Source: Styela clava (Eukaryota). From it: a DNA stretch of 64,000 bases. A program made the position numbers. The stretch is from positions 13,020,001-13,084,000 of the forward strand of contig NC_135250.1 in assembly GCF_964204865.1 (NCBI RefSeq). The letters run 5' to 3'. Every line of letters begins with the position of its first letter. The first letter of the stretch is position 1. Positions 9,001 through 33,000 of this stretch are shown here, piece after piece.

Positions 9001-12000
9001 GGGTGATCATTACGACATGCTTGCTTAGCTGCGTCTACGTCCACAGAATCAATTTCTGCAAAATACTCGCTCAATGTGTAGATGGGGCCTGTGCCTTTTT
9101 TGATCTTTGAAATCCCACTTAAGTCATGTTATATTACGGAGAAAACAATTTCACTCCGTGGCTTCTCTTCGTGGCGAGTTCCATGGCCTGCAAACAAAAA
9201 TTATACTTGATTGCTGCTATGTGATTTTAAGAATAATAAGATATATATATTATACTTTTGGGACTTTCTCGGGTGTACCTCATATTTTACCGACCCGAAT
9301 GCCAATTTGTACAATCAGAGGAAAGGAATGTCGAACCTAAAAATACTTACGCAAAGAAGAATATATACAGTAGAAAAACCCCGATTAATATGAAAATAAC
9401 TCCCGCTGCTACCACCATGCTCAACACCATAGGCGACTTTATTGCTTGCATAGCTGATTGGTTCGCTGCTGAAGGGTCGGTTGTATCACCTGTGGGACGT
9501 AACACAATGTAGATTGAAGAAAAAATCTGTACACCGTACACTGTACAGCATTGGCTTATCGCGACTAACTCACTTATGCATTCTGGTACAACGTGAGTGA
9601 ATTCACCGCTCTCTTGGCAGGTAATTATGTTAGGTCCTGTCAATACAAATCCTTTTCCACAGTAAAATTCAAGAGAAACACCAAAAGGTACCAATCCCTT
9701 GCTTGAATCGTCTGGGTTACGACATCCTTTCACTGGAAATTTGAAATATAGAAATTCAAATTAAATCATTTCAAGCACGTAGAATGCAGGTGAAATTGTG
9801 TAGCTTTAAAGAAGAACTGTATCATCTTTCGTCGTCAGTTGTGAAAGATAGAAATTTTGATTGTAACAATTCAAAGCAAAAAGTCGCATTACAATATTAT
9901 TGAACATTTGCAGTTCAACCCACATCTCGGCGGTCTTCCATTTTGATTCTGCAGATGCTATTCGATGCACCACAGTTGCAGCTTTGTTCAGAGTATGATT
10001 TTTGGGGAAATTGTGGGTAAAATAATTTGGTTTTCTCGGCGGTGTGCGAATCGTGCTCAGCGTTAAGAATACGCTCGCTACCGCACCTCTGATTACCCTG
10101 CGTAGGATTCAGATTCAGATATTTATTTTCGTCATGCAAAAAACAATGCGCGATATGAAAAATGAATAAATAATATAATGTAACAAAATGTCAAATGGAT
10201 ATCGGCTTGTTGCAGTTGACGCGGAGTCGCGAAAAGACTCATAGAGTCATCTAGTCAGCGACACCTTGTAGCTGAAATTAAGCAGCAAATATAAGAAACG
10301 GGACACTCAATATTACACATTAACTTAATAAATTAACACGATCATACAAAAGACAAAAAAATAATACAAAATAAATAGAACTCAATATTACACATTGGCT
10401 TAATTGGACACAATCATTCGAAAAATGAAAAACAACAAGAAAAAAACCTGAGTAACTACGGGATGCCACAATCCCTGTGGAATGATTAACAAACATGAAA
10501 TAGGCTATAATCATACAAGAAAAAGAGCGGCAAAACATGCGAAATAAACCACGGAATGCCACAATGACTTTGGAATAAAAAAAGATTACTTTTAAATAAA
10601 AAACAAGACAGATAAAAAACATCAACAAATCGAAAATACACCACGGAATGTCATGACGGACGCAACAGCGACATCTATAAAATGGTTATGCCTCGTTGAG
10701 TACGGAGCACAGCGAAATAGCGTTATGACTCAGCGTTCAGTCTACACCAAGATGGCGTACCCAGCAACGGGAGTTTGCTGCTAGGGTTGAATTTGTGGCT
10801 ATTTTCTGTTAAAGCGATTGCTAGTAAATTATTGGCTCTACAGATTAGTGCAGAATGAATTATGTGATCTGCATACTTCGTGTCGATTGCACTGGGCTGA
10901 AAATAGTAAGGAAATACCAGGACACAATATGCAGACAGAAGAAAATGGCAAGTTTCAAAAAGATGGATGGATATAGAAAACAACAGAAGGTAATGTTTTC
11001 AGATCAATGACAACTAGGCCTATAGGCATCAAGATATAGGCTTTTCAGTGCATGTTTGTAAGAATTATAACTACTGGATCGAATGTTATTAGGGAGGTTA
11101 TTCCACAATTTAACACCAACGAATTTGATCGAGTTTTGAGTTCGTTTGGTGCTGAAGCGATTTACATAATATGAGCACCCGACAGAGGAGCGCGTTTCAT
11201 AAGAGTGAACGTTGCTCTGTTTTAAAAAATAGTTGGTGAAAGCGGAAGGGAGTTTTTTGCAGTGATGTTGGTGCATTATTTTCAATACCTCAATTTCATA
11301 AATATCTGCTAATTTAATAATTTTAAGACTATGATAAATAGGACTAAGTCGTGAAATATAACTGGCAGCAGAAATTGCACGAATTGCTCGGTTCTGAATA
11401 ATTTCAATGCGGTGTAATAAGGTTTTATCAGCTGAACCCCAAGCAATTATGCCATACTGGATATGGCTTTGAAATAAGGAATAGTAAATCATGCGTAAGG
11501 TGGTAAGCGATGTGTATCTTCTAAGCTTGTATAGCATTCCAACAGACTTGGATAATTTAACGGCCAGGTTGGACAAGTGAATATCCCACTTCATTTTACT
11601 ATCAATGTATATACCAAGATATTTAAAGGAATGGACATTTTCCAATTTTTTATTATCAATTTGGATTTTCAAAACATTTTTCGATTTGCATTGGTATGGA
11701 GATATTAACATAGATTTTGATTTTTCAATGTTTAGTGTTAATTTATTGGCTTTCATCCAACTTGACACTTTTGCAATTTCAGTATTTACTCTCAACTGAA
11801 GAACTGCACAAGATTTGTCGCTGTCAAGGAGATTAGTATCGTCAGCGAACAATTTGGAAAATAATGAAGAGCAATAAGTTATGTCGTTAATATATACGAG
11901 AAAAAGGAGAGGGCCCAAACAGCTACCTTGAGGAACTCCATGCGTCACCGGTAAGGGAGAAGAACAGTATGATCCCACTTGAACATATTGAGATCTATTA

Positions 12001-30000: not shown

Positions 30001-33000
30001 TGTTTTTCCACATAATTAGATATGCAGTATTTTTGCTCTGGACAATTGCGACCAAATTAGCTTGCTATTTTAAACCATTGACCTAAATTTATTGATATAA
30101 ATTTAACAAGTTTGTGGCCAGAGAATCGTAATGCGACGATGAGAATGATGATAAGCGGTAGGCTTACAAAGATTATCACATTGCCTGTATTAAAAAGAAT
30201 ACACTTAAAAATTAATGCCGAGAACTATCATGATAAGTAGCCTTTTCGTCCAAACTCACAATTTTGGGGTATGAGCTTATGCAGACACGTTTTTGTTATA
30301 AACCGACAGCAATTTTAAAAACGTGCACATGAAAAATACGAAAAAAAAACTTACCAAAGTTGATGAAAAAGACAGCAATGAAGCATAAACATGATATTTC
30401 ATTCATGGCACAAAATTAATCAAATAAATGAAATAGGACTCAAAACAGGTATCAGAAAATTGCAACACATTGGATACATTTACATATTGTACTGCAATGT
30501 AAGTAAACTTGATTAAATATAATAACATAAAGTTTTTACAATCTGAGTGTTCTGATATGCTACTCATTAAAAAGTAAAGTGTAAAATAAAGTTAAAGTTC
30601 ATCCATTTTACCCAATCCATTTTTGACTCAGATGATATATACTATATATATAGGCCTACAGTATATATTAGACGCATAGCTGTTTATTCAGAATTAAATT
30701 TTCAAACGATAATAAGAAATATCCGATTCATACGGAATGTTAAATATAGTTAAAGTTAAAGCTAGATTCCAGCAATCGAGGGCATGGACCCCGCCTAACA
30801 ACATTGATTTAAAATATCATCAAATCGCATTCGTCAGTAATAAAAATTTGTACAGACGGCGTTTGACATATTTCAATGGTACTTCACTAGCGAAAGTATT
30901 TATTTATTACATTTTCGTAGAAAAACCTACTTTCAGCCGCTGTGTAAATATAGACTGTCACAGCCAATGGTACAATTACATAACGTCACGCTAATAACCG
31001 AATTGCGTAAGTCATTTTTAGCAGTTTTGAGAAAAACGTAAAAAACTTGTATTGTTATGCCATTTAGAGTCAATAATTTACCATGGTTCAATTTTTTGAT
31101 CGTAACCGGATTTAAGTTAATTTGTATGACGCAGTTATGTGACGTCATAATGGCGCACTGTGACTTAGGCAGAAATGTGTCTATGGCTTGGGGACATACG
31201 CAATTTTGCAACTTGACTATATGCACCAGTCCTGAAAACCAAAGAATCCAAAAACGAATGTAATTCTCGGTATCTACGATGTCTAATCCCCAAAGTAGCT
31301 AATCTGTTTCAACTACATTATTTTTCATGTTTAAAAATATATATTTCATCAATATAACACGCTCTACACACCCGCCCGAAATAAGACTAATATTAAATAT
31401 AAAGAATAAAACAGCAATGTACCCTTATACAAGAGCCAACCAAGGGGAATTGGACTCAGACAGTGAATATCACAAGTGCGCGCCTTCCTATACTGAAGTA
31501 TAAATTCAAATTTATAAGCGCTAAGCTAGAATCTGAGATGCAAAAACTCGAAAATCCTTCGCAGAGGTTATTTGCCTTTGTGACATCACAATAGTCCTGT
31601 GGTAACAATGATAATTCATTATGACGACACAATTGCACAAATCTGCATGTCATACAAAATCTCCATTTTTATGGGTTTCGGAATTCTTAAAATAAAATTT
31701 GAGTTAACAGACAGGTGCGCAGCATTACACAAATACCTGTTTTATAAAAAACTCAAAACCGCCGAAAATGACTTACGCAATTCGGTTATTAGCCTGACGA
31801 TATGTAGGATGGAATATCTATCACGTACATGGAAAAGTATGAATAAATATCTAACTCGCCGTTCGCCGGATTTAATGCTGCTCGCCAAACGTTGATATTG
31901 TCGCAGGATACAAAAGACCATTCACAAAACTACGTTGGTATCCTAGCAATTTTTGTTTCCTGAAATCCTGAACGAACCGCCTGAAATGCCACCTCTTGGA
32001 TTTGTCACGGAATAGACATATATATATAACTTCTGTAACTAGAAATGCGCCAATGAAAGTTAGTTTTCCGTACCCGATTCCGGTACTTGTCAATATTCGT
32101 CCTATAAGTACATACTCTTACGAATCATTGACGTATATATATGTTTTATTTATCTCTTGAACGATAATATATGAACCTATCATATTGTTTTGATTAAATT
32201 ATAATATTTTTGACTTATATCGCCTTGAAAATAGTCATTTCAGAGTCACTGAGTTTCCATGTGGTTTTGGCAGACAAACATACATGGAAACAATCCCCTA
32301 AGTCAGTGGTTCGCAAAAATTTTGTCTCTCACGGAGCACCTTGAAAAAAACAAATTTATTTGGAGCACTTGGAGCATTTGAATAACATTTGACACCTCAA
32401 TGGAAAGCATTTCAAGCTCGAATTACTACACTACATCAACTTCTTTATTTAAACATTTCAAGTTCGAAAAATGAGCAGTCACGTTAGGTTTACAGATTTC
32501 TATTTGGGGATTCTTGTTCACACATGAATGAAAATCATTGGAGTGGAAAAGTGTGACCAATCAGATTAACCGAGGGAATAAAAAATTCCACTGTTAGCAA
32601 TTATTGGTATAACCTGCAAGAATAAGCTTATTAAAGTTTTATCCATGAATTCTTTTTATGTCGGAATAGGATACTTTTCCTATATGCGCAATAAACCTAC
32701 GCAAGGGCGCAGCCAGGCCGTTCAAAGTCGGAGATTCAAAATTCCCGTATAGCCCCATAGACTCACGAGGGAGAAGAAGCATGTTTGTTACAGTAATTTC
32801 CTTTTTTTGATACCTTAGAAAGGCTCGAGAAAGACTGATGGTTGTTTGGAGGCCAATATTATGATTTTGAATTTAATGATCAGCAACATAGGGTCTGGCA
32901 TATCACTCCCTGACAAGTAAAATGGCACGATTAGCTTGGTAGTTGATCAAATTGTCCTCCACAGTTCATTTATATAAATTCGCTCATCTTTTACAAAACA

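What the first reader, a model, noticed from the sequence alone, without database searches (positions are those of the whole stretch)
9151..30406. Modular CUB-(EGF)15-sushi-TM cell-surface protein built from symmetric cassette exons: candidate recognition or adhesion receptor
Seen: SP-CUB-15 EGF-CCP-TM and a ~12-aa tail with no signalling domain. Every EGF exon and the CCP exon is phase 1-1, so any can be skipped or duplicated without a frameshift. Many repeats carry Ca-binding (D[IV][DN]EC), O-glucose (C-x-S-x-P-C) and O-fucose (CxxxxS/TC) consensus. Pro/Lys hinges ([20 protein letters not shown]) separate blocks. Known: EGF arrays occur in fibropellins (EGF-CUB-EGFn-avidin) and the ascidian egg-coat protein VC70/VC120 (EGFn-ZP), and sushi plus EGF plus TM occurs in Botryllus fester. 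None has this order as far as I recall. Inference: a lineage-specific, length-variable gamete, self/non-self or adhesion molecule. Its tail-to-tail position with a KLHL10 homolog (spermatid-expressed in mouse) is suggestive but may be coincidental.
Basis: partly seen in the sequence, partly recalled or inferred. Interest (0 to 1): 0.68.

Follow-up and report, generated by a model that had tools for sequence, protein, structure and literature searches.

The report
Sea-squirt CUB–EGF–sushi surface protein gene
This is a real, already annotated but unstudied gene of the sea squirt Styela clava for a membrane-anchored surface protein built from common modules (one CUB head, 15 EGF repeats, one sushi domain), and it is an ordinary example of module shuffling.

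Summary
On the minus strand, 9151-30406, I re-derived 21 coding exons. They reproduce all 880 residues of RefSeq isoform X1 of Styela clava LOC120340754. The order is signal peptide, CUB, 15 EGF repeats, one sushi/CCP domain, one membrane span and a 12-residue tail. All 15 EGF exons and the CCP exon are phase 1-1. Three of the 20 introns use GC donors.

RefSeq also lists shorter predicted forms: X2 lacks E6, X4 lacks E6-E8, and an older 686-residue "fibropellin-1-like" model lacks E6-E8 and E11-E12. Length variation is therefore plausible but unproven, because E6 and E7 are 94% identical and RNA-seq reads may be mis-assigned.

A full HMMER search with the CUB exon found no relative with this architecture, only multi-CUB proteins at 28-44% identity. 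The neighbouring gene, KLHL10, does have ascidian orthologues.

The likeliest role is a non-signalling adhesion or ligand-capture receptor: a calcium-type CUB head on a Notch-type EGF stalk. No data here support a role in gamete or self/non-self recognition. The comparison with fester rests on a wrong recollection.

Phase 1-1 modules are the norm for such domains, so interest is low to moderate.

The parts
30355..30406 (-). Exon 1: ATG and signal peptide (MNEISCLCFIAVFFINF + 1 base); donor GTAAGT, phase 1
   Evidence: hydrophobic N-terminus read from the sequence. Cleavage after ...TSQA is my inference.
29770..29942 (-). Exon 2: end of the signal peptide and the N-terminal half of the CUB domain (CGG...SPDY...CVW...DRIN); ends in phase 0
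   Evidence: No Pfam or PDB hit on its own; called CUB from its pattern and its continuity with exon 3.
27531..27735 (-). Exon 3: C-terminal two thirds of the CUB domain; GC donor (CAAG|GCGAGA), phase 1
   Evidence: Pfam CUB positions 38-110, E 3e-7; PDB best matches cubilin, MASP-2, neuropilin-1, C1r
27077..27223 (-). EGF1 exon (no Ca-binding N-motif), phase 1-1, GC donor (ATAG|GCATGT)
25973..26101 (-). EGF2 exon with the N-terminal hinge KPEPKAEP, phase 1-1
25659..25772 (-). EGF3 exon (Ca-binding type), phase 1-1
25165..25284 (-). EGF4 exon (Ca-binding type), phase 1-1; closest solved relatives are Notch1 and DLL1 EGFs
24981..25094 (-). EGF5 exon (DIDDC), phase 1-1; only 70 nt from EGF4
23575..23688 (-). 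EGF6 exon, phase 1-1; absent from RefSeq X2, X4 and the older model; 93.9% identical to EGF7
22451..22564 (-). EGF7 exon, phase 1-1; absent from X4 and the older model
21511..21624 (-). EGF8 exon, phase 1-1; absent from X4 and the older model
21066..21227 (-). EGF9 exon with the C-terminal Pro/Lys hinge ([17 protein letters not shown]), phase 1-1
19482..19622 (-). EGF10 exon with the charged tail ESKVKEPEKQ, phase 1-1
18942..19067 (-). EGF11 exon, phase 1-1, GC donor (GAAG|GCCAGA); there is no GT between its sixth Cys and the in-frame stop; absent from the older 686-aa model
17773..17886 (-). EGF12 exon, phase 1-1; absent from the older 686-aa model
17375..17494 (-). EGF13 exon (Ca-binding type, unusual 3-residue C4-C5 loop), phase 1-1
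16216..16323 (-). EGF14 exon (Ca-binding type), phase 1-1
15505..15645 (-). EGF15 exon (long 14-residue C3-C4 loop carrying an NST sequon), phase 1-1
9574..9732 (-). Sushi/CCP exon, phase 1-1
   Evidence: Pfam Sushi E 6e-8; PDB best matches CR1, CR2, factor H, MCP, DAF, E-selectin
9351..9489 (-). Exon for the Ser/Thr-rich stalk and the single membrane span (MVLSMVVAAGVIFILIGVFLLYIFFF); donor GC|GTAAGT, phase 2
   Evidence: best 19-residue hydropathy 2.95
9151..9187 (-). Last coding exon: cytoplasmic tail (A)PWNSPRREATE and the TGA stop
8853..8858 (-). Only AATAAA on the minus strand in the scanned stretch 8600-9200, which covers 551 nt downstream of the stop; candidate polyadenylation signal
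   Evidence: its use is not shown

Best explanation
This is Styela clava LOC120340754, a type I membrane glycoprotein of 880 residues. A single N-terminal CUB domain sits at the tip of a stalk of 15 Notch-type EGF repeats. Seven consecutive Ca-binding repeats, E3-E9, form a stiff segment, and Pro/Lys-rich hinges lie after E1, E9 and E10. One sushi domain, a short Ser/Thr stalk, one membrane span and a 12-residue tail without any signalling module follow. I read it as a non-signalling cell-surface binding protein, that is an adhesion or ligand-capture receptor or co-receptor. The CUB head would bind its partner through a calcium-held acidic triad, as in cubilin and MASP. The O-glycosylated EGF rod would hold the head tens of nanometres from the membrane. 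Any signal would have to pass through a partner in the same membrane. Because every EGF exon is phase 1-1, dropping E6, E6-E8 or E11-E12 shortens the rod without changing the frame, or even the junction residue. Shown: gene structure, domain order and identity with the RefSeq models. Inferred: calcium binding, ligand capture, glycosylation and regulated length variation.
For: Gene model: 21 exons give 880 of 880 residues of RefSeq X1, with 19 of 19 split codons matching. Domains: 15 of 15 EGF pieces, the CUB exon and the Sushi exon pass Pfam cut-offs. No other family passes its cut-off in any of the 19 pieces scanned. Head: the CUB exon aligns best with cubilin CUB5-8 (3kq4), MASP-2, neuropilin-1 and C1r. 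In the printed MASP-2 CUB1 and cubilin alignments, the Glu of ...KLE and the Asp residues of CDKDF and KTDEK fall on acidic residues; that those positions are the known Ca ligands is recalled from the literature. Stalk: the EGF4 exon is closest to Notch1, DLL1 and Notch2 EGFs. Nine of the 15 EGFs carry the Ca-binding N-motif, 10 the O-glucose site, 6 the O-fucose site and 10 the O-GlcNAc-type site. Anchor: one hydrophobic span (hydropathy 2.95) is followed by 14 residues, and the tail is read directly. Length variants: X2 lacks E6; X4 lacks E6-E8; XP_039265048.1 lacks E6-E8 and E11-E12. Every other exon matches with 0-1 mismatch. E5, E6, E7 and E8 all end in A, and E6, E7, E8 and E9 all begin with AT, so each of these junctions reads Asn.
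Against: There is no expression, localisation or binding data for this gene. No paper names the locus or its accessions (0 papers). The 'fibropellin1' qPCR primers of PMC11988888 do not match the window. The first CUB exon hits nothing on its own. The signal-peptide call is by eye. The shorter isoforms are computed predictions. E6 and E7 are 93.9% identical and share their first ~20 and last ~12 nt, so short-overhang reads cannot tell the junctions apart. The Ca-ligand assignment rests on a pairwise alignment of half a domain, with no structure. The glycosylation motifs are consensus matches only.
Confidence: 0.55

Rival explanations
1. It is a non-canonical modulator of Notch signalling. A membrane protein with Notch-type EGF repeats would bind Notch or its ligands in cis or trans, as reported for Drosophila Uninflatable (Uif) and, from memory, vertebrate DNER.
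For: The EGF4 exon's best solved relatives are Notch1, DLL1 and Notch2 EGFs. O-glucose, O-fucose and O-GlcNAc-type consensus sites occur in 10, 6 and 10 of the 15 repeats. Uif combines CUB, CCP and 18 EGF-like repeats with a membrane span and antagonises Notch (PMC3340373, passages).
Against: No DSL or MNNL module appears in any exon. Notch-type EGFs are the commonest EGF subtype in invertebrate mosaic proteins. Uif also has CLECT, FA58C and HYR domains, 3 CUB and 8 CCP domains. No similarity beyond the shared module types was seen.
Confidence: 0.12
2. It is a gamete-recognition molecule on sperm or egg.
For: Ascidian sperm receptors are EGF arrays: HrVC70/VC120 has 12 EGF + ZP, and CiVC57 has vWF + 24 EGF + ZP + TM. 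HaVC80 differs from HrVC70 by one duplicated EGF (PMC9265791, passages), which resembles the E6-E8 family here. The neighbour is KLHL10.
Against: There is no ZP module, and all 880 residues are accounted for. Gene adjacency says nothing about co-expression. There are no tissue data. Only 4 of the 686 residues of the shorter model differ between two independent RefSeq models.
Confidence: 0.08
3. It functions mainly as a shed or secreted matrix protein, like sea-urchin fibropellin, the name RefSeq first gave it.
For: The older RefSeq name is 'fibropellin-1-like'. Fibropellin is listed among the few proteins that combine EGF and CUB (PMC544551, passage). A Ser/Thr stalk next to the membrane could be a shedding site (inference).
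Against: A clear membrane span and tail are present in all four models. No avidin-like domain is present.
Confidence: 0.08
4. It is a self/non-self (allorecognition) receptor of the fester kind.
For: It has a sushi domain next to the membrane, a short tail and predicted alternative forms.
Against: Fester-family proteins are Ig + Sushi + three membrane spans, and their co-receptors carry Ig domains and long ITIM/ITAM tails (PMC12065747, passages). None of these features is present here. Styela clava is solitary (recalled). Polymorphism between the two models is 0.6%.
Confidence: 0.03
5. On the length variation only: the shorter forms are not regulated splice variants. They would instead be copy-number differences between haplotypes or assemblies, or artefacts of mapping reads onto near-identical exons.
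For: E6 and E7 differ at 7 of 111 nt. All short forms are XP_ predictions. The 686-aa model comes from an earlier annotation and differs at 4 residues, so it reflects another haplotype or assembly.
Against: E11 and E12, missing from the older model, are not similar to their neighbours. Every missing block is a run of whole phase 1-1 exons.
Confidence: 0.4

Closest known systems
Sea-urchin fibropellin-1 (SpEGF I / uEGF-1)
   Same: A CUB domain near the N-terminus is followed by a long array of Notch-type EGF repeats. From memory (Delgadillo-Reynoso 1989; Bisgrove 1991; not seen here), each repeat has its own exon and two length forms arise by splicing. The EGF + CUB combination is cited in PMC544551.
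   Different: Fibropellin is a secreted matrix protein ending in an avidin-like domain (recalled). This protein ends in sushi + membrane span + 12-residue tail and has no avidin-like domain.
Drosophila Uninflatable (Uif)
   Same: A single-pass membrane protein that combines CUB, CCP and many EGF-like repeats (PMC3340373).
   Different: Uif is much larger, with CLECT, 3 CUB, 8 CCP, 2 FA58C, 3 HYR and 18 EGF domains. Only module types are shared, and no orthology is shown.
Selectins (recalled architecture: lectin-EGF-CCPn-TM-short tail)
   Same: The same design logic: a binding head, then EGF, then CCP, then a membrane span and a short tail. E-selectin's CCP is among the PDB matches of the CCP exon.
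   Different: The head is a CUB domain, not a C-type lectin. There are 15 EGFs and 1 CCP instead of 1 EGF and 2-9 CCPs.
Ascidian egg-coat proteins HrVC70/VC120, HaVC80, CiVC57
   Same: Long EGF arrays in ascidians, with EGF number changing by duplication of single repeats (PMC9265791).
   Different: They carry a ZP module, and CiVC57 also a vWF domain. They have no CUB and no sushi domain. No ZP module is present here.
C1r/C1s/MASP and cubilin (Ca-binding CUB proteins)
   Same: The CUB exon aligns best with cubilin and MASP-2 CUB domains, and acidic residues fall at the positions I recall as the Ca ligands. The best hits in the 1.84-billion-protein library are multi-CUB proteins, many of them over 3,000 residues. 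The same three module types occur in MASPs.
   Different: There is one CUB domain instead of 2-27. There is no protease domain. The protein is membrane-anchored. Identity is only 28-36% to those long multi-CUB proteins.
Botryllus fester family
   Same: A sushi domain near the membrane, and alternative forms.
   Different: Fester is Ig + Sushi + three TM segments with no EGF or CUB (PMC12065747).

Membership tests
Fibropellin (SpEGF I type) | CUB domain plus a long array of EGF repeats | tested here: met
   Pfam CUB and 15 EGF hits on single exons
Fibropellin (SpEGF I type) | C-terminal avidin-like domain; secreted, with no membrane span (feature recalled) | tested here: not met
   No avidin family in any exon ORF. 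The C-terminus is Sushi + hydrophobic span + tail.
Egg-coat EGF-ZP proteins (VC70/VC120, CiVC57) | ZP module after the EGF array (PMC9265791) | tested here: not met
   No ZP hit. The 21 exons account for 880 of 880 residues.
Fester family | Extracellular Ig domain + Sushi + three membrane spans (PMC12065747) | tested here: not met
   Sushi is present, but there is no Ig hit. The exon peptides printed show only one long hydrophobic run, in the TM exon; the hydropathy scan covered only the last 120 residues.
Selectins | N-terminal C-type lectin head (recalled) | tested here: not met
   The head is a CUB domain and there is no lectin hit
Selectins | EGF then CCP then membrane span and short tail | tested here: met
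   Order of the exons
DSL Notch ligands (Delta/Jagged) | MNNL/DSL module before the EGF array (recalled) | tested here: not met
   Only sub-threshold EGF_DL_JAG and JAG1-like EGF matches, below their cut-offs; no DSL
C1r/C1s/MASP | CUB-EGF-CUB-CCP-CCP-serine protease | tested here: not met
   One CUB, no trypsin domain
Ca-binding CUB subclass | Glu/Asp/Asp calcium ligands (and a Tyr) at the conserved positions (recalled from the cubilin and MASP literature) | tested here: inconclusive
   The acidic residues align with those of MASP-2 CUB1 and cubilin in the printed pairwise alignments. There is no structure, and the first half of the domain could not be aligned.
Ca-binding EGF (cbEGF) | [DN]-x-[DN]-[EQD]-C1 and C3-x-[DN]-x4-[FY]-x-C4 | tested here: met
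   9 and 10 of the 15 repeats respectively. PF07645 matches are below its cut-off on single exons.
One-to-one bilaterian orthologue group | Relatives with the same CUB-EGFn-CCP-TM order in other animals | tested here: inconclusive
   CUB exon against 1.84e9 representatives: 114 hits at E<=1e-3, of which only its own cluster is close. Ten hits with an N-terminal match have CUB domains only. None of the 113 other proteins held combines an EGF array with a C-terminal span. The CCP exon's word search found only the gene itself. A whole-protein architecture search was not done.

The most novel reading that the evidence does not exclude
The gene is a stolidobranch-specific recognition receptor whose EGF number differs between individuals and cells. 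The variation would come from copy-number change plus cassette splicing of E6-E8 and E11-E12. The cassette exons would be kept alike by exon-limited gene conversion (E6/E7 dS 0.15 beside unalignable introns). The receptor would be used for gamete or self/non-self discrimination.
Probability: 0.06. Interest if true: 0.6.

Novelty: new variant of a known kind. Interest (0 to 1): 0.25.

Why it matters
It adds one more domain order to the catalogue of EGF-repeat surface proteins made by exon shuffling in invertebrate chordates. The combination is CUB head, Notch-type EGF rod, one sushi domain and a membrane anchor. I found no description of it in my paper searches, and no protein with this order among the relatives found with single exons. 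If long-read cDNA confirmed that the rod length is tuned by dropping whole EGF exons, the gene would be a compact model for how receptor reach is adjusted. If population data showed EGF copy-number variation, it would become a candidate recognition locus in a solitary ascidian. As it stands it is an unstudied, probably lineage-restricted surface protein, and its exon symmetry is the textbook rule, not an exception.

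Tried and rejected
(1) I tested whether this is the 'fibropellin1' measured during Styela tail regression. Neither published qPCR primer (PMC11988888, table passage) matches the window with up to 3 mismatches, so that study measured another gene. 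PMC9953650 mentions fibropellin in the endostyle only in general terms.

(2) The CCP exon word search with 'longer' lengths found only the gene's own products. The tool itself calls this weak evidence.

(3) The first CUB exon gave no hit in Pfam or in PDB at E<=10.

(5) Seven short hits of the CUB-exon search, P0054, P0060, P0081, P0082, P0087, P0100 and P0108 (68-232 aa), are 34-44% identical to the CUB exon. In P0054, P0060 and P0081 the match ends in the same 'YQG'. These may be exons of relatives in other genomes. They come from unnamed sources and I did not trace them, so their architecture is unknown.

(6) I looked for intron similarity that would show a plain tandem duplication of E6-E8. 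There is none beyond a 36-nt match, and flank identity falls to chance 15 nt from the exons.

(7) Paper searches on fibropellin + avidin + CUB and on the Styela clava genome plus splicing gave nothing specific to this gene. The search for the locus and accession numbers found 0 papers.

One repeat call was rejected for strand and was repeated on the + strand.

(9) I considered and rejected a pseudogene or mis-assembly: all frames are open, all splice sites are usable, and the match to RefSeq is exact.

Full report
**What is there**

The window has no N and is AT-rich, at about 30-38% G+C. A stop-to-stop ORF list of 9000-30600 shows a row of cysteine-rich pieces on the minus strand. I scanned each piece on its own against Pfam.
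- 15 of 15 EGF candidates pass the PF00008 cut-off.
- The piece at 27427-27744 matches CUB profile positions 38-110.
- The piece at 9350-9760 matches Sushi.
- No other family passes its cut-off in these pieces.
- A six-cysteine EGF pattern occurs 15 times inside 9151-30406, always on the minus strand, and 0 times in the rest of the window.

**Gene model**

I placed the splice sites by reading the codons. The result is 21 coding exons, from the ATG at 30406 to the TGA at 9153-9151.

The search with the CUB exon alone identified the organism and the gene. It is Styela clava LOC120340754, first named 'fibropellin-1-like' (XP_039265048.1, 686 aa) and now 'uncharacterized protein', with isoforms X1 (880 aa), X2 (842 aa) and X4 (766 aa).

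My exons, taken one by one in order, account for 880 of 880 residues of X1, and 19 of 19 split codons give the RefSeq residue. All 20 acceptors are AG. Seventeen donors are GT and three are GC: after the CUB exon, after E1 and after E11. For E11 there is no GT at all between the sixth cysteine and the in-frame stop.

All 15 EGF exons and the CCP exon are phase 1-1, with lengths of 108-162 nt. The CUB domain is split by a phase-0 intron and is 1-1 as a whole. The TM exon ends in phase 2.

The joined step, meaning a search or fold of the spliced protein as a whole, was left out. Every search used a single exon. The public RefSeq proteins were only compared locally with the exons.

**Protein features**
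- The order is signal peptide, CUB, E1-E15, sushi, a stalk (SDTTDPSAANQSAMQAIKSP), one hydrophobic span and the tail APWNSPRREATE.
- Nine of the 15 EGFs (E3-E9, E13, E14) carry the Ca-binding N-motif.
- O-glucose sites occur in 10 repeats, O-fucose sites in 6 and O-GlcNAc-type sites in 10. The motif definitions are recalled.
- Pro/Lys or charged linkers follow E1, E9 and E10.
- The EGF4 exon is closest to Notch1, DLL1 and Notch2 EGFs among solved structures.
- The CCP exon is closest to CR1, CR2, factor H, MCP and DAF, with E-selectin further down the list.
- The CUB exon is closest to cubilin, MASP-2, neuropilin-1 and C1r. In the printed MASP-2 CUB1 and cubilin alignments its Glu and two Asp residues align with acidic residues; that these are the Ca ligands is recalled.
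- The first CUB exon alone hits nothing.

**Length variants**

X2 lacks E6. X4 lacks E6-E8. The older model lacks E6-E8 and E11-E12 and differs at 4 residues. All other exons match with 0-1 mismatch. E5-E8 end in A and E6-E9 begin with AT, so every such junction encodes Asn.

These are computed models. E6 and E7 are 93.9% identical, E7 and E8 78%, and E6 and E8 75%. For E6/E7, dS is 0.146 and dN 0.047. Yet the introns are not alignable (one 36-nt blastn match), and flank identity falls to chance 15 nt from the exons. That points to exon-limited homogenisation. It also means that junction reads with short overhangs cannot be assigned. Splicing, copy-number difference and mapping artefact therefore remain open.

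**Relatives**

HMMER with the 68-residue CUB exon against 1.84 billion representatives gave 114 proteins at E<=1e-3. Only its own cluster is close.
- The rest are 28-44% identical. They are mostly multi-CUB proteins of up to 4,136 residues.
- Ten hits whose match lies near the N-terminus have CUB domains only.
- None of the 113 other proteins held combines an EGF array with a C-terminal hydrophobic span.
- Seven short hits of 68-232 aa are 34-44% identical. In three of them (P0054, P0060, P0081) the match ends at the same 'YQG'. Their origin is unnamed and was not traced.
- The CCP exon found only the gene itself.
- By contrast, the neighbour's BTB exon found 'kelch-like protein 10' in S. clava (100% identity), Clavelina lepadiformis (60%) and Ciona intestinalis (74% over 67% of the query), and unnamed BTB-domain proteins of Ciona savignyi (71-73%). 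Other ascidian proteomes are therefore in reach of these libraries.

**Comparison with known systems**

What I saw of each paper is given in brackets.
- Fester is Ig + Sushi + three TM segments, and fuhc-sec is Ig + two EGF (PMC12065747, passages).
- HrVC70/VC120, HaVC80 and CiVC57 are EGF arrays with a ZP module (PMC9265791, passages).
- Uif has CLECT, 3 CUB, 8 CCP, 2 FA58C, 3 HYR and 18 EGF domains plus a membrane span (PMC3340373, passages).
- EGF + CUB proteins listed in print are C1r/C1s, Tolloid, fibropellin, attractin and cubilin (PMC544551, passage).
- No paper holds the locus or accession numbers.
- Phase 1-1 symmetry of EGF, CCP and CUB modules is the textbook exon-shuffling rule (recalled). 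It is not a peculiarity of this gene.

**Verdict**

The best reading is a non-signalling adhesion or ligand-capture receptor with a calcium-type CUB head on a glycosylated, partly rigid EGF rod (confidence 0.55). It is a new variant of a known kind, and its interest is low to moderate.

Noticed in passing
window 11004-15144, minus strand (inside the 5,772-nt intron between EGF15 and the CCP exon): An apparently intact non-LTR retrotransposon in the same orientation as the host gene. ORF2 is 987 aa with endonuclease (Exo_endo_phos) and reverse transcriptase hits. ORF1 is 354 aa and its C-terminus hits Baculo_FP_2nd (PF25298). Both frames are open.
   Followed up: partly
window donors after 27531, 27077 and 18942 (minus strand): Three of this gene's 20 introns have GC-AG boundaries, and RefSeq X1 needs exactly these sites. 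That is far above the roughly 1% I recall for animal genomes. E11, one of the GC-donor exons, is missing from the older 686-aa model.
   Followed up: partly
window 23575-23688 and 22451-22564, with flanks: EGF6 and EGF7 have dS 0.146, but their introns are unalignable and flank identity drops to chance within 15 nt. This suggests exon-limited gene conversion or an exon-only copying event.
   Followed up: partly
window 1724-8791, plus strand: The kelch-like protein 10 gene (BTB, BACK and Kelch exons) converges on the CUB-EGF gene. Only 359 nt separate the two stop codons. AATAAA lies at 8787 and 8917 on the plus strand and at 8858-8853 on the minus strand, so the 3' UTRs may overlap antisense.
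   Followed up: partly
window 21830-21914 / 21969-22053, and 52190-52360 / 52364-52534: An 85-nt direct repeat pair (88% identical) lies in the intron between EGF7 and EGF8. A 171-nt tandem pair (97% identical) lies far outside the gene.
   Followed up: no
window 2108-2350 and 17056-17343, minus strand: Two ORF translations share a peptide-level resemblance (…IGIKL…PNLVHI…), seen by eye. They could be copies of a small dispersed element in introns of both genes. They are not in the self-BLAST list of hits of 120 nt or more.
   Followed up: no
window 41945-58300, minus strand: A series of very long open frames (814, 305, 630, 189, 621 and 609 aa), Ser/Thr-rich with scattered C2H2-like motifs. 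They are presumably large exons of one or more nuclear proteins and were not examined.
   Followed up: no
proteins P0054, P0060, P0081, P0087 (public library, unnamed sources): Short ORF-like CUB fragments 35-44% identical to the CUB exon. P0054, P0060 and P0081 end at the same 'YQG' boundary. They are possibly exons of relatives in other genomes. Their origin was not traced.
   Followed up: partly
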